Positions 596 through 30,995 of a DNA stretch of 36,198 nt are shown here, one piece after another; position 1 is the first letter of the stretch; every line of letters starts with the position of its first letter. The DNA is taken from the IMG/VR virus record IMGVR_UViG_2529292906_000018. One strand, 5' to 3'. The stretch is from a virus. Lineage: Duplodnaviria; Heunggongvirae; Uroviricota; Caudoviricetes. Below the pieces are notes generated by a model. The model was not told the DNA's origin. It saw only the letters and a list, made by a program, of their open reading frames with translations, and searched no databases. Position numbers and translations under genes: made by a program.

Positions 596-1570
596 TTACC
601 CAGCAATAGGATTAAATCTCACCGCATCCTGCAAGTAATCCGGCGCAAGATGGGCATAAATCATCGTTGTCTGAATCTTTGCGTGCCCCAGAATTTTCTG
701 GAGCGTCAGAATATTGCCGCCGTTCATCATGAAATGACTGGCGAAGGTGTGGCGCAGCGCATGAACAGCCTGGCCGTCAGGAACATCAGGTGCGACCGTT
801 TTGATGACATCGCGAACCAATGGATAATCCAGCGTCGGAAACACCAGTTTCCCGCCCCGTTTTTTGATCTTTTCAAACAGGCTTTCAGAAATAGGAACGG
901 TACGGTTTTTGCTGTTCTTCGTTTTTGAAAAAGTGATTCGACAATGAAGAACACGGCGCTGCTCCAGTGCCGCTACCTCGCCCCATCGCGCCCCGGTCGA
1001 CAGAAGGATTTCGACAGCCAGCCGTTCATCGGGATTTTCAGCCAGTGCATCCAGCAACTGAACACATTCAGACTTACTCAGATATCCCATTTCGCGCTCG
1101 TTAACCTTCATTCCTTTAAGGCCTTGAACGGGGTTATCGTTAAGAAAATGGCCGGATGAGATGAGTGCGGTAAACATCGCGCTTAACGCCCCAATCTCTC
1201 GATTAATGGTGCTGGGCTGTATCCCCTGCTCTATCCTGGACACACGTAGCTCGGTGAGCATCGTTGTATTAAGTTTATGCACACACGGGTCATCCATTGC
1301 CTCACTCAAGCGCAGCAATTTAAGGCGCGTGTTATGCCCTGACTTCATTAGCTGGCCGTGGTATTTCCACCACAAGTCAATAAGCACCGACAGCGGACGG
1401 CGATCAATGGAGTTTCCTTTCCACTCATTGTTATGCTGTTGCGCCAGCACCCACCGCTCATATAAAACTGCATCCGATTTCGTTTTAAATTTTTTGCGAA
1501 TGCGTTTGCCTTTACGCCCCTCAGGGCGCATGTCAAGAAGATACCCTCCCGGAATTGATTTTATGCTCAT
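596..1570 (-). CDS. int: tyrosine-type site-specific integrase (P2 Int-like)
   Basis: ORF 596..1720; C-terminus HALRHTFASHFMMNGGNILTLQKILGHAKIQTTMIYAHL is the tyrosine-recombinase catalytic signature; ATG at 1570 (MSIKSIPGGY) chosen as start. Confidence 0.9.
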   Translation of the reverse strand: MSIKSIPGGYLLDMRPEGRKGKRIRKKFKTKSDAVLYERWVLAQQHNNEWKGNSIDRRPLSVLIDLWWKYHGQLMKSGHNTRLKLLRLSEAMDDPCVHKLNTTMLTELRVSRIEQGIQPSTINREIGALSAMFTALISSGHFLNDNPVQGLKGMKVNEREMGYLSKSECVQLLDALAENPDERLAVEILLSTGARWGEVAALEQRRVLHCRITFSKTKNSKNRTVPISESLFEKIKKRGGKLVFPTLDYPLVRDVIKTVAPDVPDGQAVHALRHTFASHFMMNGGNILTLQKILGHAKIQTTMIYAHLAPDYLQDAVRFNPIAG

Positions 1571-1619
1571 TCGTGAAACCCCAGCGTTACAAGACCACCA
1601 TGCCCCCAGCGTTCCATGA

Positions 1620-1928
1620 TTAACCGGGCTGTGTACCAGTCTTGCGGGATTTTTGAGAAGACGATGTGTTTTCTGGCCCATCAGGGGAGAGAGAGGGACT
1701 GATCTGCCCAGCAGCCTCATTTGTTTTTCCCGTCATAAGCCAATTCATGTACTTAAAAAAGCGAGGGTGATTAACAATCTTGATAAGCACTTCGCCCCCT
1801 ATGTTTTCAATCCGCCCCGTTTCATAACGACGCAAAGTGCCGATAGGCACATCAATCAGGCCGCAAAATTCTTCGCGCGTTAAATCCTCTGATTCACGAA
1901 TCACTCTAATTTTTTCACCGATAAGCAT
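1620..1928 (-). CDS. C: immunity repressor (P2 C-like)
   Basis: 102 aa ORF directly upstream of int on the same strand, divergent from the cox-like gene; resembles P2 C as recalled. Confidence 0.75.
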   Translation of the reverse strand: MLIGEKIRVIRESEDLTREEFCGLIDVPIGTLRRYETGRIENIGGEVLIKIVNHPRFFKYMNWLMTGKTNEAAGQISPSLSPDGPENTSSSQKSRKTGTQPG

Positions 1929-4363: not shown

Positions 4364-4825
4364 ATGACGGCAGAGTACATCAGGGACTGGCAACAACCGC
4401 GCCACGCAGTGGGGCGTGAAGGAACGGGGATCCCCGCTCCTGAATCCGCGCTTTCCTCCTGGCTGGATGCCTACCGGGCAGAGAACGAGCACCGCCAGGA
4501 AATGGCTGATGCGGCGTTCTCCGCCACGCCGCTGGGCAACCTGATTAATAAAAGCCTGGACGCACAGGAAAAACAGGACAAAACCATCACACTGGCAGGA
4601 GACGCCAGAAAACAGGCACGCGGCGCGGTGGATGAAGCCATGGCCTCGCTGCGCCTGCTGCCGTCCTATCTGCGCGATCCGCTTATTCGCCACCTCTCCT
4701 TCCTGCGCAAAAAACAGGAAGCCGATCGTCAGAAAGGAAAAACGCCAGGCAGGCAGAACGCTATGCGCGTGGGACCCTGCGCAAAATATTCGAACGTCTG
4801 GAGCGCACCGATCACCGCTGGCTGA
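4364..4825 (+). CDS. A: probable N-terminal segment of replication protein A, separated from the main ORF by a -1 frame change
   Basis: Frame of the 4870 ORF is open and protein-like back to a stop at 4633-4635 with no ATG/GTG/TTG; upstream ORF 4364..4825 lies in the other frame; homopolymers A6 (4709-4714) and A5 (4738-4742) sit in the switch zone. Confidence 0.45.
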   Translation: MTAEYIRDWQQPRHAVGREGTGIPAPESALSSWLDAYRAENEHRQEMADAAFSATPLGNLINKSLDAQEKQDKTITLAGDARKQARGAVDEAMASLRLLPSYLRDPLIRHLSFLRKKQEADRQKGKTPGRQNAMRVGPCAKYSNVWSAPITAG

Positions 4826-4869
4826 CACCGGGTTATCGCTCCCTTGCCGGACGCGAACGCCTGGACGAT

Positions 4870-7185
4870 TTGCTTTACCTGCCGCAGCTCAACAAACACC
4901 AGATAAAGACGCTGGCAACCATGACGGCGGCGATGTTCAGCAGCACCTTCGAAAAACTCTGCGATGGCTTTGGCGCGACCGATGGCGAGCTGACCATGGA
5001 TGTAACCCTGAAGGCGTATCAGATGCTGGCCCGCATGGCGTTACACCTGCACGCCATGCCTCCACATTATGACGCACTGACAACAGACAAAGACCGGAGG
5101 AACGAACCGGACACGGAGCTGCTGCCGGGCGCAATCCTTCGCCTGACCTGTGCGGAATGGTGGAAACGCAAACTGTGGCTGTTACGTTGCGAGTGGAGAG
5201 AAGAACAACTCCGCGCCGCCTGTCTGGTTTCCAGAAAAACATCGCCCTATCTGAGCCAGGACGCGTTAAGCGAGTTTCGCGCACAGCGCGAGAAAACACG
5301 CGATTTCCTGAAAAGTTTCATGCTGGAAAACGAAGACGGGTTCACGATTGATCTCGAGACAGTGTATTACGCGGGAGTAAGTAACCCGGTTCACCGTAAG
5401 GCAGAAATGATGGCCACCATGAAGGGACTGGAACTTCTGGCCGAAGCCCGTGGCGACAGAGCGGTGTTTCTGACTGTCACCTGCCCGTCAAAATACCACG
5501 CAACAACGGAGAACGGTCATCCGAACCCCAAATGGAACGGGGCCACCATGCGCGACTCCAGCGATTACCTGGTTAACACGTTTTTTGCGGCGGTCCGCAA
5601 AAAACTGAACCGCGACGGCCTGCGCTGGTATGGCATCCGCACGGTGGAGCCTCACCATGACGGCACCGTGCACTGGCATATGATGGTCTTTGCTCATCCG
5701 GAAGAAATCGACAGCATCGTGACCATCACCCGCGATATTGCCATTCAGGAAGACCGCCACGAGCTGGGCAATGATATTACTCCGCGCTTTAAGGTGGAGT
5801 ACGTTGACGGCACCAAAGGCACGCCAACCAGCTACATCGCCACCTACATCGGAAAAAACCTGGACAGCCGCGCCGTGGATGGCATCGACCCGAAAACGGG
5901 CAAACCACGCGTTGACCACGAAACCGGAAAATCAATGGCCGAGAGCGTGGAGCGCGCCATCGGTTGGGCACGCCTTCACCGGGTCCGCCAGTTCCAGTTC
6001 TTTGGCATCCCCTCCCGTCAGGTGTGGCGTGAACTCCGCCGCCTTGCCAGCCAGATGGCACGCAACCCGGAAGGCCCGCAACGGCTGAAGGATGACGCAA
6101 TGGATGCGGTACTCGCTGCCGCTGATGCCGGATGTTTTGCCACCTACATAGAGAAACAGGGCGGCGTACTTGTTCCACGCAAAGACTACCTGATTCGCAC
6201 CGCCTACGACCTCGCCGATGAGCTGAACGATTACGGCGAACAGAGTGTACAGATTTACGGGATCTGGTCACCACTCATCGGGGAATCCTCCCGTGTGTGC
6301 ACGCACCCGGATAACTGGAAGCTGGTAAGACGTAAACCGGAACAGGAAGGCAGCGCCCACGAAAATGGTTTTGACCTTCAGGGCGGCCCTGCCGCCCCTT
6401 GGACTCGTGGCAATAACTGTCCCCGTGTACAGGAAACGGACAACAACGGGACAGAACAGCCGGAAGAACGGCCAGCACCGTGGCCGCAGCTCCCTGACAG
6501 CGTTGAAGTGAACGAATGGATGCGCTCACTAAAACGGCACGAACGCCGGGCGCTGATGCGTTCGCTTCGTGACAAACAGGCAAAAAACAGCAGTGATGAA
6601 ATGCAGAGCTGGACACAGAGCCGCAAACAGCAGCGGCCTTTGCCTGATAACCACGAATTACTCGCTAAAGAATGGCGGGAGTCTGCTGAATCTCTCGGCC
6701 TGCATATCGGTGAACAGCAGATGCAGCACCTGTTACGGGGCGGCAGTCTGTACGTTGACGGCAGCATCATTGCACCGCAGGGATTTGAAATTGTACGCAA
6801 ACCGGATACCCGCCCGGACAGCCGAATCACGCAGCTCTGGCAGCGCCTGAGCCGTAACCACGGCGTAAGCAGTACGGAGATCCGCCATAACCCGGTCGCC
6901 AGCTATCTGGAACAGCTGGGGACATTAGACCCCGAAGCCGCCGCACGCCTGGCATCCACACTTCAGCAAGACCAGAACACCATGAAAACACCCGTTACCG
7001 TGCTTTCTGACATGCTGCGCGCCATCCGCGACGCAGAGCACGCACAGAGAATCAGTGAAACCACTGAACGCGCCCGCCGCAAAGCAGACCTGCTGCGGGG
7101 TGGCCTGACCAGTGGAAACAAAAAACAGACAGAAACGGGATTCACAAATCCCGTAAATGAGCAAAAAACGCGCCGCGATATATGA
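4870..7185 (+). CDS. A: replication initiation endonuclease (P2 gpA family, rolling-circle initiator), main ORF
   Basis: 771 aa ORF with VEPHHDGTVHWHMMVF and YIATYIGKNLD motifs typical of gpA; listed TTG start at 4870 is probably not the true start (see N-terminal segment). Confidence 0.85.
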   Translation: MLYLPQLNKHQIKTLATMTAAMFSSTFEKLCDGFGATDGELTMDVTLKAYQMLARMALHLHAMPPHYDALTTDKDRRNEPDTELLPGAILRLTCAEWWKRKLWLLRCEWREEQLRAACLVSRKTSPYLSQDALSEFRAQREKTRDFLKSFMLENEDGFTIDLETVYYAGVSNPVHRKAEMMATMKGLELLAEARGDRAVFLTVTCPSKYHATTENGHPNPKWNGATMRDSSDYLVNTFFAAVRKKLNRDGLRWYGIRTVEPHHDGTVHWHMMVFAHPEEIDSIVTITRDIAIQEDRHELGNDITPRFKVEYVDGTKGTPTSYIATYIGKNLDSRAVDGIDPKTGKPRVDHETGKSMAESVERAIGWARLHRVRQFQFFGIPSRQVWRELRRLASQMARNPEGPQRLKDDAMDAVLAAADAGCFATYIEKQGGVLVPRKDYLIRTAYDLADELNDYGEQSVQIYGIWSPLIGESSRVCTHPDNWKLVRRKPEQEGSAHENGFDLQGGPAAPWTRGNNCPRVQETDNNGTEQPEERPAPWPQLPDSVEVNEWMRSLKRHERRALMRSLRDKQAKNSSDEMQSWTQSRKQQRPLPDNHELLAKEWRESAESLGLHIGEQQMQHLLRGGSLYVDGSIIAPQGFEIVRKPDTRPDSRITQLWQRLSRNHGVSSTEIRHNPVASYLEQLGTLDPEAAARLASTLQQDQNTMKTPVTVLSDMLRAIRDAEHAQRISETTERARRKADLLRGGLTSGNKKQTETGFTNPVNEQKTRRDI

Positions 7186-7230
7186 AGCGCGCATAAAACA
7201 GGCAAAAACGGGATTTCAGAATCCCGTAAA
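7134..7230. promoter_or_regulatory. pair of 20-bp palindromes at the A/parM junction (candidate parC-like centromere/operator)
   Basis: ACGGGATT-CACA-AATCCCGT at 7137-7156 and ACGGGATT-TCAG-AATCCCGT at 7209-7228, 72 bp apart, directly upstream of parM. Confidence 0.4.
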
Positions 7231-7261
7231 CGATTAATTAATCAACATAAGGAAAAGCGAC

Positions 7262-8221
7262 ATGAAAATTTGTATCGACGACGGCTCCACCAACATCAAG
7301 CTGGCATGGACTGAGAACGGCGAACGCCGCAACGCCATCAGCCCGAACAGCTTCAAGTCGGAATGGTCTGCGCCGTTCGGTGGCACGCAGCCCGCGAACT
7401 ACATGCTTGATGGCGTGCGCTATGGTTTTGATCCGGTCAGCGATCGCTTTGTCCAGACGACCGACACGCAATACCAGTACAGCGATGTGAATGTCATTGC
7501 CATTCATCACGCGCTGGTCAAATCAGGCATCACACCACAGGAGGTGGATGTGGTTGTCACCCTGCCACTGAGCGAGTATTTCGACACAAACGCACAGCCG
7601 GACATGGCCAACATCAACCGCAAAAAAGCGAACGTTATGCGCCCGGTGGAGTACCAGAACGGCGAGGCATTCACTATCCGTAACGTGCGGGTTATGCCTG
7701 AATCCATTCCGGCTGGCTTTAAGGCACTGGCTGACATGAGTCCGTTTGAATCCCTGCTGATTGTGGATTTGGGCGGAACCACGCTGGATGTGGCAAAGGT
7801 TCAGGGGCAACTGGCAGGTATCAGCCAGGTGTTTTGCGATCCACACGTAGGCGTTTCTCTGATGGCCGATGCCGTACTGTCAGTGATGGCCACTAACGGT
7901 ATGCGCACCAGTCACCACATCGCCAATACCATTATCGAACATCGCCATGATGAAGCCTGGCTGCGCCAGCACATCCACAATGACGCGCATTACGCCAGCC
8001 TGATGGCGGTTATTCGTGAAAAGGAAGAAACACTGAAACAACGCGTGATCCGCGCGCTGGCGGTTTTTTCGGGTTACGGGCGGGTGATGGTTGTCGGTGG
8101 AGGGGCGGAGATTGTGGCACCCGCTATCCGCGAAGCCTGCGGAGTTAATGCGACTTTCATCGCGGACGGGGTGCCACAGTTTGCTCTGGTTAATGGGCTG
8201 TACGCAATGGACAAGGAGTAA
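7262..8221 (+). CDS. parM: actin-like plasmid segregation ATPase ParM/StbA
   Basis: N-terminus MKICIDDGSTNIKLAW and YSDVNVIAIHHAL closely resemble R1 ParM (MLVFIDDGSTNIKLQW...YSDVNVVAVHHAL) as recalled; RBS AAGGA upstream. Confidence 0.85.
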   Translation: MKICIDDGSTNIKLAWTENGERRNAISPNSFKSEWSAPFGGTQPANYMLDGVRYGFDPVSDRFVQTTDTQYQYSDVNVIAIHHALVKSGITPQEVDVVVTLPLSEYFDTNAQPDMANINRKKANVMRPVEYQNGEAFTIRNVRVMPESIPAGFKALADMSPFESLLIVDLGGTTLDVAKVQGQLAGISQVFCDPHVGVSLMADAVLSVMATNGMRTSHHIANTIIEHRHDEAWLRQHIHNDAHYASLMAVIREKEETLKQRVIRALAVFSGYGRVMVVGGGAEIVAPAIREACGVNATFIADGVPQFALVNGLYAMDKE

Positions 8222-8225
8222 ACCA

Positions 8226-8537
8226 ATGACGACACCAACCAGACGGATAAGTTTCTATCTGAAGCCTGCGGCCGTCAAGAACGAAAGCGAAGCATGCGCC
8301 TGGCTGGACAGCCTTACACCAGAAGCCCGCAAAAGCGGCCAACGCGTGGCTTTTCTGGCCGGGCTGGCACTTCTGAAAATGAATCCAGCAGAGGCTTACC
8401 GACTGGCTGCATGGGCTGACGATGAGGCGTTATCAGTGACACAAACCAGGACAGAATGCCCCGCGTCACAGCCAGTATCAACCGCACAGATAACCAGTCA
8501 GATGGCCGGAAATATCCGGGCGTTATTTCCCGAATAA
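8226..8537 (+). CDS. parR: ParR-like centromere-binding adaptor protein
   Basis: ATG 8226 with AAGGAG 7 nt upstream; RRISFYLKPAAV...AFLAGLALLKMNP resembles R1 ParR (RRTIAFKLNPDV...ALTAGLALYRQDP) as recalled; immediately downstream of parM. Confidence 0.7.
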   Translation: MTTPTRRISFYLKPAAVKNESEACAWLDSLTPEARKSGQRVAFLAGLALLKMNPAEAYRLAAWADDEALSVTQTRTECPASQPVSTAQITSQMAGNIRALFPE

Positions 8538-8543
8538 CACAAC

Positions 8544-8576
8544 ATCAGGGCGCATCCGCCCTGATGACTTTAATCC
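8544..8576 (+). terminator. weak putative terminator after parR
   Basis: Hairpin ATCAGGGCG-catc-CGCCCTGAT at 8544-8565 followed by gacTTTaaTcc. Confidence 0.3.
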
Positions 8577-8635
8577 GGGAACATAAACAAGGGGGACACA
8601 ATGCAACACATTGACAGAGAAAAAGGAAAAAAAGC

Positions 8636-9043
8636 ATGAACAGAAAACAGAAACAAGAGTTGAAATACTTCTTACGTAAAGAAATTGCCAGGCTTGAAGA
8701 TGCAGAGTCACAATCATCAGAAATTCCGTTCGGAATGGATATCAACGACGCCCGTATGCTTCAGGCATACCGTATAGCTCAGGCTGCACTACAGACAAAA
8801 CCGTTAAATAACATACATGAAAAGTATGATTATTTTACGGATACCGCTTGCTTGCTGACATCTGAAGAACAAAAGATAGCCCAACTTTTAGGCGACGCAT
8901 GGAACCTGTATTTAACATTGCCAGTTGAGCATCCAATGGGTAGAGATGAATTTTGCCGGGCAATTCATCATTGCCAAAATATGGTGTTGGCACGCCCGGC
9001 CATCAGGGCGTTGGCCAGGAAGGGGCAAGGCTATAAAAGATAA
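8636..9043 (+). CDS. hypothetical protein (135 aa), accessory gene in the slot where P2 carries tin/old
   Basis: ATG 8636 with AAAGGA upstream; AT-richer than phage core; followed by a strong terminator; no recognisable motif. Confidence 0.5.
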   Translation: MNRKQKQELKYFLRKEIARLEDAESQSSEIPFGMDINDARMLQAYRIAQAALQTKPLNNIHEKYDYFTDTACLLTSEEQKIAQLLGDAWNLYLTLPVEHPMGRDEFCRAIHHCQNMVLARPAIRALARKGQGYKR

Positions 9044-9190: not shown

Positions 9191-9476
9191 CTGCGCGCAG
9201 GTGACGGGGGAACAGCCCGCGTTTCAGGGGGTAAATAGCATCCCCTGAACGATGTCGCAGCAACACAACAGAATGGCTGTATTTCTCACGCTGAGCGTGA
9301 AAAAAACGTGAGGGCTTTTGATTTGATGGGGTGAAAGGTAAGGCCGTCAAAATCGCACTGAGGCGGCGAGAACATGCAGTTAACGCGGTGGGATTGCGTA
9401 AGAATCTGACCGTCGATGATGGCAATAAGCAGGAAAGCGTCGTGAAATTATCTGACTGATACAGGAGCTGGAGAGT

Positions 9477-9527: not shown

Positions 9528-10574
9528 TCAGGATGTGGGCTGGGTGTCCAGCAGTGCATAAGGGTTAAAGCGGATCACCTCTTCGCCAAGCCAGTCATTG
9601 ATGTGCTTCATGGCCTCCATGACGGGCATCAGCTCGTTAATTGCGTAAACCCGCGCGGCCTTCTCCACATCACCAAACGCACTTTTTTCACCCGGCATCG
9701 CCCCCATCAGTTGCGGCGGGACACGGTGCGCAGCCAGCACATCATCACGGGATGCCGCCTTAACATTCATGAACTCATCCTTTGCGGTGATCTGCTGGAA
9801 CGGCAAAATTTGCCCCCCCTCTTTGCCCCCGTTGGGCGCATGAATGAGCACGTTTTTAAACGCACCACCACCACGTGCACCCTGTAACGTTTCTTTCAGG
9901 GAGTCCATGCTTTCGCGGTTTACCTGCGCTGCACCGATGTAGATGATGCACCCGGCGTGGGATCCGTTGTCGTAATACAGTTTTCTGAACATGTCCGCCG
10001 AATGAGACAGGCTGGCCGAGAGTAATGCGCCGAGATATTCCGGCATGCCGTAGATTTCCTGGTTAATATCCGGATTCATCAGGTGACACACTTTGCCGGG
10101 GCGAAACTGGAACGCGTCCTTGCCATCCTGCACATACCACCATGATTCAAGATCGCTTCCGCGTCGCATGTATTTCGCCAGGGCGTGCCGTAATTTAAGC
10201 GGTTCGCCGAGCATATTGCTCCGAAGCTCAAGGAATGCGTTACCGAACACAAACCAGTCCAGCGCCAGCGCCGAGAAATCCTGCCGGGAAAGCAGCGGGT
10301 GCGGGATGTAGCAACCGAGTAATACATTGCGCTTAAAGTAAAGCGCAGACTGATGCCAGGACGTTTGCCGGGCAGCTCTTGCCAGACCGTACCAGTCCAC
10401 CGGGGTTTCATACCACCGCCCGTTATCAGCACAGTACATATTATCCAGCAGGTCATGCCCGGTCAGGCGATAAGGCCCATCAAATGTGAATGCACTGAGC
10501 GACGATTCATTCCTGAGCGCATCAGCGAGATCAATGCGTGAACTCATGCGCACTTTTTTATTTTTTCTGCTCAT
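9528..10574 (-). CDS. Q: portal protein (P2 gpQ-like)
   Basis: 348 aa ORF at the P2 Q position beside P, leftward; GGAG SD; start overlaps P stop. Confidence 0.85.
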   Translation of the reverse strand: MSRKNKKVRMSSRIDLADALRNESSLSAFTFDGPYRLTGHDLLDNMYCADNGRWYETPVDWYGLARAARQTSWHQSALYFKRNVLLGCYIPHPLLSRQDFSALALDWFVFGNAFLELRSNMLGEPLKLRHALAKYMRRGSDLESWWYVQDGKDAFQFRPGKVCHLMNPDINQEIYGMPEYLGALLSASLSHSADMFRKLYYDNGSHAGCIIYIGAAQVNRESMDSLKETLQGARGGGAFKNVLIHAPNGGKEGGQILPFQQITAKDEFMNVKAASRDDVLAAHRVPPQLMGAMPGEKSAFGDVEKAARVYAINELMPVMEAMKHINDWLGEEVIRFNPYALLDTQPTS

Positions 10575-11767
10575 CAGAACTCCATAACCGTGAAACGCTC
10601 GTTTTCTCCTTCGCCGCCAATTGGTTCGTTAATGACAGCAAGCATGGTTGCCCACGCAAGGTCGCCGTGGCTGATCCCCCTCGCGCGGTCCGTTTCGTAA
10701 GTGATAAAGCCGCCCGGTGTTTTCACCTTACGCACGGCGTTAAAGGCTGCGACCAGTTCGCGTTCGGCGCGATCGTATTCCCACCGCCCGGCGCGCATTA
10801 TTTGCAGCATTTTCAGTACCAGCGACCGTTTTGATGACAGCGTGAAGGTGTACGGAATAGCAGCAGGGAAAAACCGTTTCACTATCTGATAAACAGCCTC
10901 CCCGTTCCCACCTGTCACATCAATGCCGATGTGTTCCACGTTGTAGCGACACGTGAACTCTTCAATGACTCTGGCCTGTTCTTCAAACTCCAGCCCCTGA
11001 ACGCGTCGCGTCTCCACTGTTCGAAAACGGCCACCAGGAACAGCCGGAGGGACCACCACGGACACCGCGCCGCTGTCGCCGTTGCCACTGCTGCCGTTTG
11101 CGTCATACCCAATCCATACCGGGCGATTCCCCATCGGGCGGGGAGCAAAAGGTTTCCAGTCTTTCCAGTCGTCGTATCCGTCAACACCGCAGCCAATCAG
11201 GATATTCAGGTTAAATGCCGATTCCCCTTCGCGGACAAACTCACACATATAGAGATTGAGGAACTCGTCTTCGGTGTTTTCATCACGAATTTCGTCGATA
11301 TCGGTGTGTTTCCAGCCGTGATTAACCACATCTTCCAGCGTGACAATTTGCCGCCACGTCCGGTCAGGGCAGATAAGCCCGTTATGCAGCGTTTTCCAGT
11401 CCACAGAAAAACGCTGGCGTTTATGCGTGGCCTTTTTCTCGTTCCAGCGGTCGCCGTTCCAGTAGGCGTATGCCTCGTGCGTTTCGGTGGATGGCGTGGA
11501 GAAGTAGGTGCGCCGCAGTCCGCTGAGGGTTGCCATAGCGCCAGCCACCTTGCGCAGTTCAGCAAAGCGGCTGACCCAGAAAAATTCATCAAAATAAAAA
11601 TTGCCAGTATAGGACTGTGCCGACGCAGCAGAAGTGCCGAGGAAATGCAGCTCTGCGCCGTTGGAGAGGATGATTTTATCACCCCCTTTCAGCTCCACAT
11701 CAACTTCAGCCGCGGCCTTCTGAATAATGCTTTTAAACTGGAACGCCTGACGACGCGACGCAGACAA
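10574..11767 (-). CDS. P: terminase ATPase (large) subunit, P2 gpP-like, C-terminal ORF
   Basis: 397 aa ORF; continues the 11689..12324 ORF after a -1 shift at T6 (plus A6 at 11766-11771); reading T7 would give ...RNQIFLSASRRQAFQF... Confidence 0.8.
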   Translation of the reverse strand: MSASRRQAFQFKSIIQKAAAEVDVELKGGDKIILSNGAELHFLGTSAASAQSYTGNFYFDEFFWVSRFAELRKVAGAMATLSGLRRTYFSTPSTETHEAYAYWNGDRWNEKKATHKRQRFSVDWKTLHNGLICPDRTWRQIVTLEDVVNHGWKHTDIDEIRDENTEDEFLNLYMCEFVREGESAFNLNILIGCGVDGYDDWKDWKPFAPRPMGNRPVWIGYDANGSSGNGDSGAVSVVVPPAVPGGRFRTVETRRVQGLEFEEQARVIEEFTCRYNVEHIGIDVTGGNGEAVYQIVKRFFPAAIPYTFTLSSKRSLVLKMLQIMRAGRWEYDRAERELVAAFNAVRKVKTPGGFITYETDRARGISHGDLAWATMLAVINEPIGGEGENERFTVMEF

Positions 11768-12324
11768 AAAATCTGGTTACGCTGGTAAGGTTGCGCCACA
11801 TCGTCACGCAGCGCCATCAACAGTGCTTCCTGTGCAAAATACCAGGTCGCCCCAATCTGTCGGGATTTCAGGATCATCCTGTTACGTATCCCGGCTTCCC
11901 TGCAAAGGGTCAGGGCGTCAAACCAGCCCCGCTGATGCCACTCCAGCCTGCTGATGATTTTTTCCCGCAGTGCGGCAATCTGTTCCGGCGTGAAATGATT
12001 TTTAAGTTTTTTCGCCCGGCTTTTCTTTCCTGTGGCCGTCGCATCCGGCTGGTCATTATGCAGTTTTTTAAGCTGCCGGGTCAGCAGGTCTATTTCCTTG
12101 AAGTCACCACCTGTTTTATTCTGTTTTTCAGTAAGCTGGATGAGGCGCGCATCGATGGACTGCGTGACACGCTGCACGGGTGGCGTTTCATCCCACTGAT
12201 CGCGTTTTTTCCACGCATAAATCGTGTTCGGGTTTATTCCCATCAGACGTGATATTTCTGCGGGCGGATAACCCTGCCAGTAAAGTTGTCGCGCACGCTG
12301 GCGCACAAAAGCGTCCTGAATCAT
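11689..12324 (-). CDS. P: terminase ATPase (large) subunit, P2 gpP-like, N-terminal ORF
   Basis: 211 aa ORF starting MIQDAFVRQRARQLYWQGYPPAEISRLMGINPNTIYAW (N-terminal HTH typical of P2-type terminase); GGGGGAG SD. Confidence 0.8.
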   Translation of the reverse strand: MIQDAFVRQRARQLYWQGYPPAEISRLMGINPNTIYAWKKRDQWDETPPVQRVTQSIDARLIQLTEKQNKTGGDFKEIDLLTRQLKKLHNDQPDATATGKKSRAKKLKNHFTPEQIAALREKIISRLEWHQRGWFDALTLCREAGIRNRMILKSRQIGATWYFAQEALLMALRDDVAQPYQRNQIFCLRRVVRRSSLKALFRRPRLKLMWS

Positions 12325-20211: not shown

Positions 20212-20812
20212 TTCGTTGTTACCACCATCAGCCAGCAATTTCATGCGTTGTGCCGAAGCCGTCGGAACACGCATTACAGACATTCCGGTAGACCTCAACA
20301 CGCTGTGGTCGCCGGACACCTGCCCGGTGCATCTGCTGCCTTATCTCGCCTGGGCGTTTTCCGTTGACCGCTGGGATCGCAACTGGCCGGAAGAGACAAA
20401 GCGACAGGTGATTCGTGATGCATGGCTGATACACCGACACAAAGGGACCATCAGCGCACTGCGAAGAGCCGTGGAGCCTCTCGGCTACCTGATTGAAGTA
20501 AAGGAGTGGTGGCAACTCAACGAGGAGCCGGGAACATTTCGCATTGTTGTCGGAGTACTTGATCAGGGCATCACCGATGAAATGTATCAGGAACTTGAGC
20601 GCCTTATTGCGGATGCAAAACCAGTAAGTCGCCATCTGACGGGGCTGGCGATCAGCCTGAGTGTGAACGGAAAGATTTTCGTTGGTACGGGATGCTATCA
20701 CGGCGATGCCCTGACGGTTTATCCCTACACCCCGGAGTCCATTATTGTCGAAGGGGATTATTTCCCTGCCCCAGCCATTCATTTAATTGATAATCTGAGA
20801 GTAAACGCATGA
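20204..20812 (+). CDS. I: baseplate protein I (P2 gpI-like)
   Basis: ATG 20204 with AAGGTGGA SD, overlapping J stop; within ORF 20171..20812. Confidence 0.75.
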   Translation: MSNSLLPPSASNFMRCAEAVGTRITDIPVDLNTLWSPDTCPVHLLPYLAWAFSVDRWDRNWPEETKRQVIRDAWLIHRHKGTISALRRAVEPLGYLIEVKEWWQLNEEPGTFRIVVGVLDQGITDEMYQELERLIADAKPVSRHLTGLAISLSVNGKIFVGTGCYHGDALTVYPYTPESIIVEGDYFPAPAIHLIDNLRVNA

Positions 20813-22404
20813 CAGTGAAATACTACGCCATTCTGACTAATCAGGGCGCGGCACGACTGGCTAACGCGACGATGCTCGGCAGTAAGCTGAATCTGACGCA
20901 AATGGCCGTTGGTGATGCAAATGGTGTGTTACCAACACCAGACCCTGCACAAACAAAACTGATTAACCAGAAACGCATTGCACCGCTGAATCTTCTGAGT
21001 GTTGACCCTAACAATCAGAGCCAGATTATTGCGGAGCAAATCATCCCTGAAAACGAGGGAGGATTCTGGATCCGTGAGATTGGTCTTTATGATGATGAAG
21101 GTGTACTCATTGCGGTGGCAAACTGCCCGGAAACGTACAAACCGCAGTTGCAGGAAGGCAGTGGACGCACCCAGACTATCCGCATGATTCTGGTTGTCAC
21201 GAACACCGAAGCCATCACGCTGAAAATCGACCCGTCTGTGGTTCTGGCAACCCGCAAATATGTGGATGATAAAATATCAGAGCACGAACAGTCACGACGT
21301 CACCCGGACGCCTCGCTGACCGTAAAAGGTTTTACTCAGTTAAGCAGTGCAATTAACAGTGAATCAGAAACACTGGCCGCAACACCGAAAGCGGTTAAGG
21401 CTGCATATGACCTGGCTAACGAGAAATATACCGCCCAGAACGCCACCACTACACAAAAAGGGATTGTTCAGCTCAGTAGCGCCACGAACAGCACGTCTGA
21501 AACACTGGCAGCGACACCAAAAGCTGTTAAGGCGGTAATGGATGAAACGAACAAGAAAGCACCATTAAACAGCCCGGCACTGACCGGAACGCCAACAACA
21601 CCAACAGCGCCACAGGGGACTAATAGTACCCAGATCGCAAGCACGGCTTTCGTTATGGCCGCGATTGCCGCACTTGTAGATTCGTCACCTGATGCACTGA
21701 ACACGCTGAACGAACTGGCTGCGGCGCTGGGCAATGACCCGAATTTTGCGACCACCATGACTAACGCGCTTGCGGGTAAGCAACCGAAGGATGCCACCCT
21801 GACGGCGCTGGCGGAGCTTGCTACATCAGCAGATAAACTCCCATATTTTACAGGGGCAGATCGTGCCGCGTTAACCGCGTTGACAAGTGTTGGACGTGCC
21901 ATTCTTGGTAAAACCAGCACTCAGGGCGTTCTTGATTACCTTGGTTTAGGGGAAGGCTCTGCACTGCCCGTTGGTGTACCTGTTCCATGGCCCTCAGCCA
22001 CGCCGCCAACGGGGTGGCTGAAATGTAACGGCGCAGCATTTTCTTCTGAAATGTATCCCAGACTGGCAATGGCTTACCCCACCAATAAATTACCAGACTT
22101 ACGCGGTGAATTTATCCGTGGCTGGGATGATGGGCGCGGGGTGGATGCCGGAAGGGGCATCTTAAGCATGCAGGGGTGGTTAACAGGAAGTCATTATCAT
22201 AATATTCGGTCATGGGACGCGTGGGATAACACGGTACTGGTGCCAAATGACAAAGGAGGGGATAGTTTGTTGTCGACAGATAACGCCGTCCGGCAAGGTG
22301 CAATTAACGGTAGATTTACCAGTCAATACAGAACGGAATCCTCAGGGGGGAATGAAACCCGCCCACGCAATATTGCCTTCAATTATATTGTGAGAACCGC
22401 ATAA
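20809..22404 (+). CDS. H: tail fibre protein H (constant N-terminal part plus currently expressed variable C-terminal cassette)
   Basis: 531 aa; internal repeats (TQLSSAINSESETLAATPKAVKA / VQLSSATNSTSETLAATPKAVKA); C-terminal third shares a junction motif (GLGEGSALPVGVPVPWPSATPPTGWLKCNGAAF) and a terminal motif (ETRPRNIAFNYIVR) with the downstream inverted cassettes. Confidence 0.85.
   Translation: MTVKYYAILTNQGAARLANATMLGSKLNLTQMAVGDANGVLPTPDPAQTKLINQKRIAPLNLLSVDPNNQSQIIAEQIIPENEGGFWIREIGLYDDEGVLIAVANCPETYKPQLQEGSGRTQTIRMILVVTNTEAITLKIDPSVVLATRKYVDDKISEHEQSRRHPDASLTVKGFTQLSSAINSESETLAATPKAVKAAYDLANEKYTAQNATTTQKGIVQLSSATNSTSETLAATPKAVKAVMDETNKKAPLNSPALTGTPTTPTAPQGTNSTQIASTAFVMAAIAALVDSSPDALNTLNELAAALGNDPNFATTMTNALAGKQPKDATLTALAELATSADKLPYFTGADRAALTALTSVGRAILGKTSTQGVLDYLGLGEGSALPVGVPVPWPSATPPTGWLKCNGAAFSSEMYPRLAMAYPTNKLPDLRGEFIRGWDDGRGVDAGRGILSMQGWLTGSHYHNIRSWDAWDNTVLVPNDKGGDSLLSTDNAVRQGAINGRFTSQYRTESSGGNETRPRNIAFNYIVRTA
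21929..21954 (+). other. invertase crossover site inside H (hix/gix-like)
   Basis: TTCTTGATTACCTTGGTTTAGGGGAA resembles the Hin-family 26-bp site (hixL TTCTTGAAAACCAAGGTTTTTGATAA as recalled); lies at the constant/variable junction. Confidence 0.55.
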
Positions 22405-23015
22405 TGAATAACGCGATATTAAATGATGACCTTATTGCCGTACAGGCAGGAAACATCGTCGTTTATAACTATGATGGTGAGACACGGGAATATATTTCCG
22501 AATCAACTGAATATCTTGCTGTGGGTGTCGGTATTCCGGCAAATTCCTGTTTAGATGCCCCGGGCGCACATAAAGCGGGCTATGCTATCCGCCGTTCGGA
22601 GAATTTAAGTTCATGGGAGTATGCGCCAGACCATCGTGGTGAAACCGTCTATAGCACTGACACGGGAAACACCGAAGAAATCACGGCGCTGGGTGACTAC
22701 CCGAAAAATACAACCACTATCGCCCCGTTAACACCATACGATAAATGGGATGGTGAAAAATGGGTGACAGATACTGAGGCACAACATCGTGCCGCAGTAG
22801 AAGCGGCAGAAACCAAGCGCCAGTCACTGGCTGATGCGGCAATGGCTTCCATAAGTCTGATTCAGTTGAAGTTGCAGGCCGGGCGGAAGTTGACGCAGGC
22901 AGAAACCACCCGGCTTAATGCCGTGCTGGATTATATAGACGCGCTGAACGCAATGGATATAAACATGACACCAGATATCAACTTGCCGGAAATACCACTG
23001 GCAGCAGCCAGTTGA
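22404..23015 (+). CDS. G: tail fibre assembly chaperone (P2 gpG-like)
   Basis: 203 aa ORF immediately after H with ATG overlapping the H stop. Confidence 0.75.
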   Translation: MNNAILNDDLIAVQAGNIVVYNYDGETREYISESTEYLAVGVGIPANSCLDAPGAHKAGYAIRRSENLSSWEYAPDHRGETVYSTDTGNTEEITALGDYPKNTTTIAPLTPYDKWDGEKWVTDTEAQHRAAVEAAETKRQSLADAAMASISLIQLKLQAGRKLTQAETTRLNAVLDYIDALNAMDINMTPDINLPEIPLAAAS

Positions 23016-23021
23016 ATATAA

Positions 23022-23468
23022 CTAAGCCGCCCTCACGATATAGTTAAATGCAATATTGCGGGGGCGGGTTTCACTACCACCTGTGTTACCAATACTTCCT
23101 CGTGAATGAAGCGTTGGTGATGGAATCAAACTCCCTCCTGTATTTGTGGCATCAAGCCCCCTGCCTTGTGTATATGTTTTTTTGAAAATCGTAGCCAACT
23201 CCCATTCATCTTTTGTGTCATATCCATCGTTAGCTACAACAATATGGCGGTGTTTTTCCAACATCCCGTTTTGAATGCTCAATAAAGCGCGTGCCGCATC
23301 AATTCCTCGCCCATCATCCCAGCCACGGATAAATTCGCCCCGTAAATCCGGTAATTTATTGGTGGGGTAGGCCTTTGCCAGATTGGGGTACATTTCAGAA
23401 GAAAATGCTGCGCCGTTACATTTCAGCCACCCCGTTGGCAGCGTGGCTGAGGGCCATGGAACGGGCAC
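23022..23468 (-). CDS. silent alternative tail-fibre C-terminal cassette 2 (promoterless, invertible)
   Basis: Begins with the H junction motif (V)PVPWPSATLPTGWLKCNGAAF and ends ETRPRNIAFNYIVRAA; listed start is an in-frame GTG, the frame continues into the crossover site. Confidence 0.6.
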   Translation of the reverse strand: MPVPWPSATLPTGWLKCNGAAFSSEMYPNLAKAYPTNKLPDLRGEFIRGWDDGRGIDAARALLSIQNGMLEKHRHIVVANDGYDTKDEWELATIFKKTYTQGRGLDATNTGGSLIPSPTLHSRGSIGNTGGSETRPRNIAFNYIVRAA

Positions 23469-23489
23469 ACCAACGGGCAGTGCAGAACC

Positions 23490-23515
23490 TTCTCCTAAAC
23501 CAACGTTTTCATGCG
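23490..23515 (-). other. invertase crossover site 2 (inverted relative to the H site)
   Basis: TTCTCCTAAACCAACGTTTTCATGCG; reverse complement shares GTTGGTTTAGGAGAA with the H-site half. Confidence 0.5.
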
Positions 23516-23982
23516 GCTCTTACGATGTAATTAAATGCAACGTTGCGAGGGCGAGTTTCTGTACCTACATTTCCACTAATTTCACCAAACCGTTTTACAT
23601 TACGAGAGCTAATGGCTCGTAGTGAGGAAGGCACCTTTAAACCGGGTTCGTCTGTTTTAACTATTCCCCCGTCCCCGTATGTAGCCAGTATTCCAGGGTT
23701 TACTCCTTCCCGTGTACTTCCCGCGGCAAGTCCATCCCCGGTCCATAATTCCATATAGTGTGCATGATCCAAAATTGTGTGTGGCTGCCAATTAAGCAAA
23801 GCGCGGCCAGCATCCACCCCGCGCCCATCATCCCAGCCACGAATAAATTCACCCCGTAAATCCGGTAATTTATTGGTGGGGTAGGCCTTTGCCAGATTGG
23901 GGTACATTTCAGAAGAAAATGCTGCGCCGTTACATTTCAGCCACCCCGTTGGCAGCGTGGCTGAGGACCATGGAACGGGCAC
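23509..23982 (-). CDS. silent alternative tail-fibre C-terminal cassette 3
   Basis: Same conserved N-terminal junction and C-terminal ETRPRNVAFNYIVRAA motif, different central segment. Confidence 0.6.
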   Translation of the reverse strand: MPVPWSSATLPTGWLKCNGAAFSSEMYPNLAKAYPTNKLPDLRGEFIRGWDDGRGVDAGRALLNWQPHTILDHAHYMELWTGDGLAAGSTREGVNPGILATYGDGGIVKTDEPGLKVPSSLRAISSRNVKRFGEISGNVGTETRPRNVAFNYIVRAA

Positions 23983-24003
23983 ACCAACGGGCAGCGCCGA
24001 GCC

Positions 24004-24029
24004 TTCTCCTAAACCAACGTTTTCATGCG
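24004..24029 (-). other. invertase crossover site 3
   Basis: Identical 26-mer TTCTCCTAAACCAACGTTTTCATGCG. Confidence 0.5.
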
Positions 24030-24232
24030 GCTCTTACGATGTAATTGAATGCAACGTTGCGGGGGCGTGTTTCTGCTGTGCCGACAATACTGGTACTCAG
24101 TCCTGTCGCTGTTCGTTTGTTATTTTTATTCCCTTCGATAAGACAGTTGTAATCGTCATTACCAATTAACGAGTTGGTGGCATCAATACTGTCCGGGGAC
24201 AAGGCATTAGTTGTGGAACTTAAAGTCAGCAT
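24023..24232 (-). CDS. alternative tail-fibre cassette 4, distal segment (after -1 frame change)
   Basis: Ends AETRPRNVAFNYIVRAA; frame is open upstream to 24298; joins the 24256..24612 ORF if the A6 run at plus 24289-24294 is read one base longer. Confidence 0.5.
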   Translation of the reverse strand: MLTLSSTTNALSPDSIDATNSLIGNDDYNCLIEGNKNNKRTATGLSTSIVGTAETRPRNVAFNYIVRAA

Positions 24233-24255
24233 CTCGTCTGAACTTGGAAGATTTT

Positions 24256-24612
24256 TTAATGGGGTTTCATTACGTGAAATACCCGCATAAAAAAGGACTC
24301 ATGCCTGTGCGCTTCAAAGGAGTCATCCTGAAGACTTAGCAAGGCACGCCCAGCATCCAAGCCACGTCCATCATCCCAGCCACGGATAAATTCACCCCGT
24401 AGATCCGGTAATTTATTCGCGGGGTAAGCCTGTGCCAGTTTGGGGTAATCTTCAGAAGAAAATGCTGCGCCGTTACATTTCAGCCAGCCCGTTGGCGGTG
24501 TAGCTGAGGGCCACGGAACGGGTACACCAACGGGCAACGCAGAGCCTTCCCCCAAACCAACGTTTTCGTCTTTATCCCTACCTATACCAACTATGTATTT
24601 TTCACGAAACAA
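24256..24612 (-). CDS. alternative tail-fibre cassette 4, proximal segment
   Basis: Contains GLGEGSALPVGVPVPWPSATPPTGWLKCNGAAFSSEDYPKLAQAYPANKLPDLRGEFIRGWDDGRG, then runs out of frame. Confidence 0.5.
   Translation of the reverse strand: MFREKYIVGIGRDKDENVGLGEGSALPVGVPVPWPSATPPTGWLKCNGAAFSSEDYPKLAQAYPANKLPDLRGEFIRGWDDGRGLDAGRALLSLQDDSFEAHRHESFFMRVFHVMKPH
24547..24572 (-). other. invertase crossover site 4, adjacent to the invertase gene
   Basis: TTCCCCCAAACCAACGTTTTCGTCTT, a variant of sites 2 and 3. Confidence 0.45.
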
Positions 24613-24626
24613 AGAGGATGTTTTTT

Positions 24627-30838: not shown

Positions 30839-30995
30839 AGCTTCAGCCCCTTGTATCCGTTAAATGATTCGGCAACAATCATCACCCACCACGCGCGTAA
30901 TCTCACCCCTGCGCCATTCTCCCGCCACGGCGACAACAAAAAGCAGTAACCCCCTCCGCACGCACATGCGACCATGCCATACAGGGAGGGAACAG
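30839..30995. promoter_or_regulatory. divergent promoter region between FI (minus) and D (plus)
   Basis: 157-bp gap between divergent starts; promoter elements not resolved by eye. Confidence 0.3.

What the first reader, a model, noticed from the sequence alone, without database searches (positions are those of the whole stretch)
7134..8580. parMR actin-type partition module carried inside an integrative P2-like prophage
The ORF at 7262-8221 has an N-terminus nearly superimposable on R1 ParM, and the following ORF resembles ParR. Together with the upstream palindromes they form a complete candidate type II partition cassette. It sits in the variable slot after gene A where P2 carries tin/old. 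Partition systems are expected on plasmid-prophages, not on phages with a tyrosine integrase and attachment site, so this element may have an episomal phase or use ParMR during replication or establishment.
Basis: partly seen in the sequence, partly recalled or inferred. Interest (0 to 1): 0.6.

Follow-up and report, generated by a model that had tools for sequence, protein, structure and literature searches.

The report
ParMR partition cassette in P88-like prophage
An integrating P2-type E. coli prophage carries an intact, strongly conserved actin-type DNA-segregation module (ParM, ParR and a small candidate centromere); databases and two papers already record this, but nobody has tested what it does.

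Summary
ORF 7262-8221 is a full-length ParM: 47% identical to R1 ParM, PDB E=8e-93, both Pfam ParM domains. ORF 8226-8537 is a ParR/StbB-family adaptor (PF10784, E=1.7e-24). Two 20-bp palindromes, ACGGGATT-N4-AATCCCGT, lie 73 bp apart just upstream and occur nowhere else in the window.

The element is a P88-like (Xuanwuvirus) P2-type prophage with a tyrosine integrase. The cassette is not rare: about 24% of complete E. coli genomes carry it, almost always on the chromosome. RefSeq and PHROGs already label it as a partition system. Pfeifer 2021 and Rousset 2022 already proposed an episomal state for P88 and for P2-like phages.

What this analysis adds:
- parM is under strong purifying selection (dN/dS about 0.05).
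- ParR has an invariant N-terminus, a hypervariable linker and a conserved C-terminal motif.
- parMR co-occurs 14/14 with one gpA lineage and sits before the truly variable cargo, so it is backbone rather than hotspot cargo.
- The candidate centromere is two palindromes flanking a weak promoter. R1 parC instead has eleven-bp iterons, ten by my recollection.

The most likely role is handling excised or infecting circular phage genomes, as AlpAC does in CGP3. Stable plasmid lysogeny is less likely. Already known; modest interest.

The parts
4364..7185 (+). P88-type replication initiator gene A (gpA). It lies directly upstream of, and is probably co-transcribed with, parMR. In this window it is split by a 1-nt deletion near 4738.
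   Evidence: Pfam Phage_GPA 5.4e-131. 96.6% nt identity to P88 gpA, with a frame change at residue 126. This gpA type co-occurs 14/14 with parMR in the phage collection.
7119..7160 (+). First copy of the 42-nt direct repeat: an A-rich tract plus palindrome 1.
   Evidence: the repeat finder family D1, reference copy.
7135..7154 (.). Palindrome 1 (ACGGGATTcacaAATCCCGT), candidate ParR site. It lies inside the last codons of gene A.
   Evidence: The core is conserved in 77 IMG/VR loci. In a Hafnia relative the gpA stop codon falls inside this palindrome, so conservation is at the DNA level.
7155..7207 (+). 53-bp spacer between the palindromes. It holds a weak sigma-70-like candidate promoter (TGAGCA 7158-7163, 15 nt, TATATG 7179-7184) and the gene A stop codon (7183-7185).
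   Evidence: 7/12 consensus match. The tool scan at 9/12 or better found none. The Hafnia equivalent reads TGAACA-16-TATAAG, read by eye.
7192..7233 (+). Second copy of the 42-nt direct repeat.
   Evidence: 81% identical to the first copy, 73 bp start-to-start.
7208..7227 (.). Palindrome 2 (ACGGGATTtcagAATCCCGT), candidate ParR site 35 bp upstream of the parM start. It overlaps a second weak promoter candidate (TTCAGA 7215-7220, 16 nt, ATTAAT 7237-7242).
   Evidence: The 73-bp spacing to palindrome 1 holds in 55 of 56 loci where both sites were scored, and in Hafnia.
7249..7253 (+). Ribosome-binding site AAGGA for parM. The CATAAGGA context is shared with the R1 parM leader.
   Evidence: Read.
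7262..8221 (+). parM, an actin-like ATPase of 319 aa.
   Evidence: dN/dS 0.053 over 66 distinct alleles. Full length in 175 of 182 assessable loci.
8226..8537 (+). parR, a 103-aa adaptor. Residues 1-18 are invariant (the putative DNA-binding strand), 19-65 form a helical core, 66-92 a hypervariable linker, and 93-103 a conserved NI(R/Q)xxFPE motif.
   Evidence: PF10784 1.7e-24. Allele survey. Segmental dN/dS 0.13 / 0.60 / 0.04. The C-terminal motif aligns with the C-terminus of R1 ParR (R1 sequence verified).
8543..8566 (.). GC-rich 10-bp-stem hairpin just after parR. It is a likely (bidirectional) terminator that closes the operon.
   Evidence: Terminator-like site. DNA fold -12.7 kcal/mol, z=-7.3.
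8636..9043 (+). orf135, this copy's variable-slot cargo. It is not part of the partition system.
   Evidence: No Pfam or PADLOC hit. PHROG 13916 over residues 70-134. The region after parR is replaced by other cargo in relatives.

Best explanation
This is an intact type II (ParM/ParR/centromere) DNA-segregation module. It is a fixed part of the replication module of P88-like (Xuanwuvirus) P2-type temperate phages.

Proposed mechanism:
- ParR dimers bind, through the invariant N-terminal strand, to the two ACGGGATT-N4-AATCCCGT palindromes. These flank a weak par promoter, giving a miniature parC.
- The conserved C-terminal ParR motif captures ParM.
- ATP-ParM filaments then push or position DNA molecules that carry the site.

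The substrate is the extrachromosomal circular phage genome, not a plasmid prophage. P2-type replication by gpA yields monomeric circles, which are also the packaging substrate (textbook P2 biology). The module would therefore act after infection or induction, to spread or position replicating circles. It may also carry copies into both daughter cells before integration. This is analogous to AlpA/AlpC of the integrated Corynebacterium prophage CGP3.

Shown: family membership, intactness, purifying selection, linkage to the gpA lineage, and conservation and specificity of the palindromes.

Inferred: ParR-palindrome binding, co-transcription with gene A, and the stage and substrate of action.

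Sub-confidences:
- Functional ParM-ParR pair: about 0.85.
- Palindromes are the centromere/operator: about 0.65.
- Acts in the lytic or establishment phase rather than in plasmid lysogeny: about 0.55.
For: ParM family and motifs. ParR family.

Selection: parM dN/dS is 0.053, against 0.235 for the adjacent 3' 1500 nt of gene A. ParR is constrained at the N-terminus (0.13) and the C-terminal motif (0.04) but not in the linker (0.60), the pattern expected of a DNA-binding adaptor that also binds ParM. The C-terminal motif aligns with the R1 ParR C-terminus; by my recollection of Gayathri et al. 2012, that is the ParM-binding helix.

Palindromes: unique in the window. The 73-bp (about 7 helical turns) spacing is conserved in E. 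coli and Hafnia phages, even where the reading frame over site 1 differs. Of 115 assessable IMG/VR contigs with the exact palindrome, 109 have it within 200 bp of a parM start.

Linkage: 14/14 co-occurrence with P88-type gpA. 1279 E. coli genomes carry parM against 1355 with this gpA. The cargo after parR is variable.

Transcription: a 76-bp gap after gene A, no + strand terminator and no strong promoter, consistent with early-operon read-through.

Integrated state: 1441 of 1443 places are chromosomal, and the phage has an integrase.

Precedent: AlpAC is induced early after excision and is needed for efficient prophage replication (PMC4446434).
Against: No experiment exists for this cassette. 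The literature found gives only annotation and hypotheses.

Only two palindromes (four half-sites) are present. R1 parC instead carries arrays of 11-bp iterons flanking a TTGACA promoter (ten iterons by my recollection). It is unproven that so small a site can hold a ParM filament end.

On the minus strand both palindromes are followed by T-runs and score as terminator-like, so they could be terminators.

The AF2 model of ParR was poor (pLDDT 54), so the ribbon-helix-helix fold is not confirmed.

The timing of expression is inferred from the lack of signals, not from data.

The cryptic CP-933T prophage of O157:H7 EDL933 keeps gpA, parM and parR intact although its head genes are gone. That could hint at a lysogen-stage role.

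One complete assembly holds a whole P88-like genome as a 34.4-kb circular replicon.
Confidence: 0.55

Rival explanations
1. Dual lifestyle. P88-like phages can persist as low-copy plasmid prophages as well as integrate, and ParMR stabilises that episome. This is the hypothesis printed by Pfeifer 2021 and Rousset 2022, and the first reader's first option.
For: A complete partition module is conserved under selection. Both papers state the hypothesis. NZ_CP148288.1 is a 34,461-bp circular record holding a whole P88-like genome closed across the int / right-end junction. A phage 100% identical over the 12.5 kb compared is integrated in another strain.
Against: In 5426 complete E. coli genomes, 1441 of 1443 parM places are chromosomal. 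The one plasmid place examined in that collection, pCREC455-3, is a prophage integrated into a 129-kb plasmid. In the plasmid collection the other parM-bearing records are 227 kb to 1.4 Mb, or an incomplete linear contig.

Every copy examined has an integrase. Among the proteins scanned against Pfam, the only replication function found is the P2-type rolling-circle initiator gpA. It sits in the early operon next to an HTH repressor, and no plasmid-type copy-controlled replicon turned up. A single circular record can equally be excised or induced phage DNA.
Confidence: 0.15
2. Lysogen-stage function. ParMR is expressed from the integrated prophage. It acts either on the host chromosome locus that carries the palindromes, or against incoming related phages or plasmids (partition-type incompatibility or exclusion), as other genes in the gpA-gpQ region do.
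For: The gpA-gpQ interval of P2-like phages is a known hotspot of lysogen-expressed defence genes. Weak promoter candidates overlap the palindromes. The cryptic CP-933T prophage retains intact parMR. ParR shows several divergent alleles with a hypervariable linker, which could reflect a conflict.
Against: No PADLOC hit for ParM, ParR or orf135. The cassette is constant and tied to the gpA lineage rather than shuffled like hotspot cargo.

No plasmid in PLSDB carries a close ParR. Only 7 records match, and the 6 that could be assessed also carry the phage-type ParM at 99% or more. The next-best ParM is 53% identical. There is therefore no obvious incompatibility target.

The DNA-contact strand of ParR and the palindromes do not diversify together: the same sites sit next to 56%-identical ParR alleles.
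Confidence: 0.12
3. The ParM-ParR pair is functional, but the two palindromes are not its centromere. They would be transcription terminators or attenuators protecting gene A from leftward transcription, and the real ParR site lies elsewhere or is missing.
For: Both palindromes score as intrinsic-terminator-like on the minus strand, with T-runs, and fold at -8 kcal/mol. In several relatives the hotspot cargo is encoded on the minus strand and reads toward parR. Two sites are few for a parC.
Against: A stronger hairpin already sits after parR (8543-8566). The duplicated 42-nt unit, the fixed 73-bp phasing, the position flanking promoter-like hexamers directly upstream of parM, and the conservation of both arms over the loop fit a protein-binding operator/centromere laid out like R1 parC. 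No other repeat family was found in the 6950-7300 region scanned.
Confidence: 0.15
4. Decaying remnant of a captured plasmid module with no current function.
For: This particular window has 1-nt deletions in gene A and the large terminase gene, so the copy may be defective. About 7 of 182 loci have an internally disrupted parM.
Against: parM dN/dS is 0.05, and ParM is 94% identical between E. coli and Hafnia phages. It is full length in 96% of loci. All nucleotide-binding motifs are intact. Active, inducible phages such as P88 and phiSM carry it.
Confidence: 0.03

Closest known systems
R1/R100 ParMRC (StbA/StbB/parC) type II plasmid partition system
   Same: Same gene order, parC-parM-parR. 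ParM is 47% identical over the full length with all nucleotide-binding motifs. ParR belongs to the same Pfam family, PF10784, with an aligned C-terminal motif. The cis sites flank promoter-like hexamers directly upstream of parM. The RBS context CATAAGGA is shared.
   Different: ParR is only 27% identical and shorter (103 aa against 117). The cis element is two 20-bp palindromes 73 bp apart, not arrays of 11-bp direct iterons around a consensus TTGACA promoter. The carrier is an integrating phage, not a low-copy plasmid. ParM forms its own lineage: at least 99% identity within phages, with the next plasmid relative at 53%.
AlpA/AlpC of Corynebacterium glutamicum prophage CGP3
   Same: An actin-like filament protein plus a co-transcribed DNA-binding adaptor. 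The adaptor binds sites in the operon's own upstream region. The system is encoded on a chromosomally integrated prophage, is induced early after excision, and is required for efficient phage DNA replication (PMC4446434). It is the best functional analogy.
   Different: The host is an actinobacterium. No sequence comparison with AlpC or AlpA was made here. By my recollection AlpC is a distant actin-like protein, not of the R1 ParM family, and AlpA is not a PF10784 ParR. For the P88-type cassette none of these activities has been tested.
Phage-plasmids (P1, N15, SSU5; VP882 community of Pfeifer 2021)
   Same: Tailed temperate phages that encode partition genes. Pfeifer 2021 placed P88 itself in the VP882 community because of its partition and plasmid-like replication gene hits.
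   Different: P88-like elements have a tyrosine integrase and are found integrated in almost every complete genome. Among the proteins scanned, only the P2 gpA rolling-circle initiator looks like a replication function, and no plasmid-type replicon was found.
P2 tin/old and other gpA-gpQ hotspot cargo (Rousset 2022)
   Same: Same interval between gene A and the portal gene.
   Different: There is no defence-model hit. parMR is invariant and abuts gene A, and the shuffling cargo begins only after parR.

Membership tests
Type II (ParMRC) partition system | Actin-fold ATPase of the ParM/StbA family with intact nucleotide-binding motifs | tested here: met
   PDB ParM E=8e-93 over residues 2-316. 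Pfam StbA_N 275 bits and ParM C-terminal domain 231 bits, both far above the cut-offs. DDGSTNIK, PESIPAG, DLGGTT and GGGAE are identical to R1.
Type II (ParMRC) partition system | Small ParR adaptor encoded immediately downstream of parM | tested here: met
   A 103-aa ORF starts 5 nt after the parM stop. PF10784 scores 85.9 bits against a cut-off of 25. PHROG 2515 'partition protein'.
Type II (ParMRC) partition system | ParR has an N-terminal ribbon-helix-helix DNA-binding domain | tested here: inconclusive
   The N-terminal 18 residues are invariant, which fits a DNA-contact strand. The AF2 monomer model is of low confidence (pLDDT 54) and shows helices at 20-29, 39-50 and 54-61 but no strand. 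No PDB sequence hit.
Type II (ParMRC) partition system | ParR C-terminal peptide that binds ParM | tested here: inconclusive
   The conserved C-terminal motif N-I-(R/Q)-x-x-F-P (segment dN/dS 0.04) aligns with the C-terminus of R1 ParR. A helix is predicted at 89-100 at low confidence. Binding itself cannot be tested here.
Type II (ParMRC) partition system | Centromere of repeated ParR sites upstream of parM, overlapping the par promoter | tested here: inconclusive
   Two conserved, phased palindromes flank weak promoter-like hexamers and are specifically associated with parM. They are only two, and palindromic, not an iteron array. ParR binding is untested.
Type II (ParMRC) partition system | ParM polymerises, and the locus stabilises a low-copy replicon | not testable with these tools
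   This needs biochemistry and a plasmid-loss assay with 7100-8580 on a par-minus test vector.
Phage-plasmid (plasmid prophage) | Maintained as an autonomous replicon in lysogens | tested here: not met
   1441 of 1443 parM places in complete E. coli genomes are chromosomal. The one plasmid place examined there is an insertion in a 129-kb plasmid. One 34.4-kb circular record exists in PLSDB.
Phage-plasmid (plasmid prophage) | Plasmid-type replication module with copy control; integrase dispensable | tested here: not met
   The only replication gene found among the proteins scanned is P2-type gpA (PF05840). A tyrosine integrase is present, as in P88, EDL933 CP-933T and pCREC455-3.
Prophage actin-like replication-positioning system (AlpAC type) | Induced with early genes after excision and required for efficient phage DNA replication | not testable with these tools
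   There is only indirect support: a 76-bp gap after gene A with no + strand terminator and no strong promoter. Transcriptomics and qPCR of mutants are needed.
P2 gpA-gpQ hotspot anti-phage cargo | Matches a known defence family and varies between otherwise similar phages | tested here: not met
   No PADLOC hit. parMR is constant across the lineage, while the DNA after parR shows at least 24 arrangements in 49 loci.

The most novel reading that the evidence does not exclude
P88-like phages would have a true dual lifestyle. The two-palindrome mini-centromere plus ParMR would let the gpA-replicated circle persist and segregate as a plasmid, for instance when attB is occupied or integration fails, alongside ordinary integration. 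If so, an abundant E. coli prophage lineage, found in about a quarter of genomes, would be a facultative phage-plasmid driven by a rolling-circle initiator. It would also define a minimal type II centromere.
Probability: 0.12. Interest if true: 0.65.

Novelty: already known. Interest (0 to 1): 0.3.

Why it matters
The cassette is among the most widespread actin-type segregation modules in E. coli, present in about 24% of complete genomes. Yet it sits on an element that is normally integrated, where a partition system has no obvious job.

Working out its role would show whether temperate phages of the P2 type use cytoskeletal filaments to organise replication or establishment, as CGP3 does, or whether they can live as plasmids.

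The two-palindrome site would also be a usefully small model centromere for ParMR mechanics.

As a discovery it is not new. Annotation pipelines name it, and two papers have already raised the same hypothesis.

Tried and rejected
1. Covariation between ParR alleles and the palindromes. ParR alleles only 56% identical sit next to identical upstream DNA, and the ParR N-terminal strand is invariant. There is no covariation signal to exploit, for or against binding.

2. Wobble-compensated changes in the palindromes as evidence for an RNA hairpin. Variants of site 2 would keep G-U pairs on the + strand, and variants of site 1 on the - strand (my reading). This is inconsistent and probably just reflects transitions.

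3. AF2 model of ParR. pLDDT was 54, too poor for a fold search, so none was run.

4. Expression evidence in O157:H7 omics papers. Locus tags for the CP-933T parM and parR were not found in the held text or supplements.

5. Defence-system reading. PADLOC was negative.

6. Ogr-type late promoter (TGT-N12-ACA). None lies near parM; the only hit between 6500 and 9700 is at 9253.

7. Was the circular record NZ_CP148288.1 accompanied by an integrated copy in the same strain? That strain's chromosome did not appear among the top hits of the E. coli collection, so it seems not to be held there. Only a phage 100% identical over 12.5 kb, integrated in another strain, was found.

8. The search for more distant phage-type ParR relatives reached only Escherichia, Shigella, Cronobacter and Hafnia. 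The most divergent hit, P0078, looks frameshifted.

Full report
**1. What is there**

The window is a P2-type prophage. Its gene order is tyrosine integrase (596-1720, minus strand; Pfam Int_N and Phage_integrase), an HTH repressor, the early genes, replication gene A (to 7185; Phage_GPA 5e-131), the region of interest, and then the portal gene (9528-10574, minus strand) and the late genes.

Nucleotide searches place it among P88-like phages (genus Xuanwuvirus, Peduoviridae). Fourteen phage records share the 7100-8620 segment at 94-98% identity. They include P88, PhiR44_2, P884B11 and Citrobacter phiSM.

**2. The proteins**

ORF 7262-8221 is a full-length ParM.
- It matches the solved R1 ParM structures at E=8e-93 over residues 2-316.
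- It carries both Pfam ParM domains, far above their thresholds.
- It is 47% identical to an R1-type ParM.
- The nucleotide-binding motifs are unchanged.

The next ORF starts at 8226, not where the ORF lister's TTG start suggests. It encodes a 103-aa protein of the ParR/StbB family (PF10784, 1.7e-24).

I checked my recalled R1 ParR sequence against the plasmid collection. It is 100% identical to the gene next to parM in more than a thousand plasmids. The comparison is therefore sound. Phage ParR is only 27% identical to R1 ParR. It shares the N-terminal R-x-x-x-F-x-L-x-P strand region and a C-terminal N-x-x-x-L motif. From my knowledge of the R1 ParM-ParR peptide structure (Gayathri et al. 2012), that C-terminal part is the helix that binds ParM.

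**3. The cis element**

Two perfect palindromes, ACGGGATT-N4-AATCCCGT, lie at 7135-7154 and 7208-7227. Each sits inside a 42-nt direct repeat. No other match occurs in the 36-kb window even with three mismatches.

The first palindrome lies within the last codons of gene A.

Conservation across related loci:
- Across 81 related loci the arms are conserved better than the loops.
- The start-to-start spacing is 73 bp in 55 of the 56 loci where both sites were scored.
- A Hafnia phage with a 94%-identical ParM keeps both cores and the 73-bp spacing. There gene A ends inside the first palindrome. The conservation is therefore of DNA, not of protein.
- Of 115 assessable IMG/VR contigs containing the exact palindrome, 109 have it within 200 bp of a parM start. 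A further contig has both sites next to a disrupted parM. These phages are closely related, so this shows linkage, not independent origin.

Layout and signals:
- The layout is a site, then weak promoter-like hexamers, then a site, then the RBS. This mirrors R1 parC, where 11-bp iterons flank a TTGACA promoter.
- The repeat architecture is nevertheless different and much smaller.
- No strong sigma-70 promoter and no plus-strand terminator separate gene A from parM. I infer that parMR is mainly read through from the early operon.
- A strong hairpin follows parR.

**4. Is it functional?**

Among 66 distinct parM alleles, dN/dS is 0.053. The adjacent 3' 1500 nt of gene A gives 0.235.

ParR shows the signature of a two-ended adaptor:
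- residues 1-65: dN/dS 0.13
- linker 66-92: dN/dS 0.60, with many unrelated variants
- last eleven residues: dN/dS 0.04

ParM is a full-length open frame in 175 of 182 loci that are not cut by a contig end. The module is not a relic.

**5. Backbone, not cargo**

All fourteen phage records with this type of gpA carry parMR. Every other P2-like gpA in the collection is below 50% identity and lacks the last ~144 residues.

In complete E. coli genomes, 1279 carry at least 80% of parM and 1355 carry this gpA type.

ParM is at least 99% identical in the 80 best IMG/VR loci. By contrast, the interval from the parR stop to the portal gene falls into at least 24 arrangements among 49 loci. In this window that interval holds orf135. 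The variable tin/old-type slot therefore begins after parR.

**6. Where the element lives**

parM was found in 1303 of 5426 complete E. coli genomes. Of 1443 places, 1441 are chromosomal.
- The one plasmid place examined in that collection is a prophage inserted in a 129-kb plasmid.
- In PLSDB the matches are large replicons, an incomplete linear contig, or one 34,461-bp circular record. That record is an entire phage genome.
- A phage 100% identical over the 12.5 kb compared is integrated in another strain.
- The cryptic CP-933T prophage of O157:H7 EDL933 retains the integrase, gpA, parM and parR, though its head genes are deleted.

**7. What was already known**

RefSeq annotates these genes as 'plasmid segregation protein ParM' and 'plasmid partitioning/stability family protein'. 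PHROGs calls both 'partition protein'.

Pfeifer et al. [quoted passage not shown] Rousset et al. [quoted passage not shown] The phiSM paper lists it as a fitness gene. The P88 paper does not discuss it.

I found no experimental test.

**8. Most likely mechanism**

I favour action on extrachromosomal phage circles after infection or induction. The model is CGP3 AlpAC, an actin-like protein plus adaptor on an integrated prophage that is needed for efficient replication (PMC4446434).

Three points support this:
- parMR is fused to the replication module.
- It probably shares that module's transcript.
- The element is almost never seen as a plasmid, and no plasmid-type replicon was found among the proteins scanned.

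P2-type replication yields monomeric circles (textbook knowledge), which are plasmid-like substrates for ParMR.

This remains inference. Stable or facultative plasmid lysogeny, a lysogen-stage role, and a non-centromere role for the palindromes stay open, with the probabilities given above.

**9. Verdict**

This is a real, intact and ordinary-looking ParMRC relative in an already documented context. The added value here is the selection analysis, the ParR domain pattern, the backbone status and the description of the two-palindrome site. Interest is modest. The unanswered functional question is worth a bench test.

Noticed in passing
window 4700-4780 (gene A) and 11730-11810 (large terminase): Relative to P88, this copy has single-base deletions at A-runs: GGCAAAAA to GG-AAAAA near 4738, and A7 to A6 near 11767. 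They split gpA (153 + 771 aa ORFs instead of 940 aa) and the terminase (211 + 397 aa instead of 583 aa). Either the prophage is defective or these are homopolymer sequencing errors. parM and parR are intact.
   Followed up: partly
window 8421-8501 (ParR residues 66-92) and the ParR alleles in L008-L087: ParR has several allele families. Their helical cores are only partly similar, and their linkers are unrelated. They sit next to ParM proteins that are at least 99% identical and next to identical upstream sites. This suggests recombination or relaxed or diversifying selection confined to the linker.
   Followed up: partly
window 6751-7185 (last ~144 codons of gene A): P88-type gpA has a C-terminal extension that no other P2-like gpA in the phage collection aligns to; their matches stop at residue 627 of the 771-aa ORF. 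It also has an N-terminal extension, giving 940 aa in total. The first palindrome is embedded in the end of the C-terminal extension. Its function is unknown.
   Followed up: no
window 20809-25226: The C-terminal part of the tail-fibre protein (residues ~668-747 of a relative) matches four separate places on both strands: 21961-22203 (+), 23229-23483 (-), 23758-23997 (-) and 24295-24654 (-). They lie next to a 202-aa ORF at 24618-25226. This looks like an invertible or shufflon-type host-range segment with its invertase.
   Followed up: no
window 8636-9043: orf135 fills the variable slot in this copy. It has no Pfam or PADLOC hit. Its C-terminal half matches PHROG 13916 (labelled 'DNA ligase', 8.7e-30). 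The protein is identical in NZ_CP148288.1. Other relatives carry different cargo there, such as a ClpX zinc-finger protein or DUF4760.
   Followed up: partly
L002 = NZ_CP148288.1 (whole record): A 34,461-bp circular 'plasmid' of E. coli Z1323PEC0009 is a complete P88-like phage genome joined across the integrase / right-end junction. It also carries a Hok/Gef toxin gene and a Com/methyltransferase pair. A phage 100% identical over the 12.5 kb compared is chromosomal in strain Z1323HEC0067.
   Followed up: partly
L092 = E. coli O157:H7 EDL933, NZ_CP008957.1 2687590-2708010 (CP-933T): The cryptic P2-like prophage CP-933T has lost the portal, terminase and head genes to IS elements. It keeps the integrase, the early genes, a full-length gpA, parM and parR.
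   Followed up: no
window 596-1720 (-): The integrase of this copy is only 48% identical to that of the otherwise near-identical phage NZ_CP148288.1. The integration module, and presumably attB, is therefore swapped between members of the lineage.
   Followed up: no
window 30864-32104: The gpD-like late gene appears as two overlapping ORFs, 30864-31736 and 31733-32104. This may be a third frameshift in this copy.
   Followed up: no
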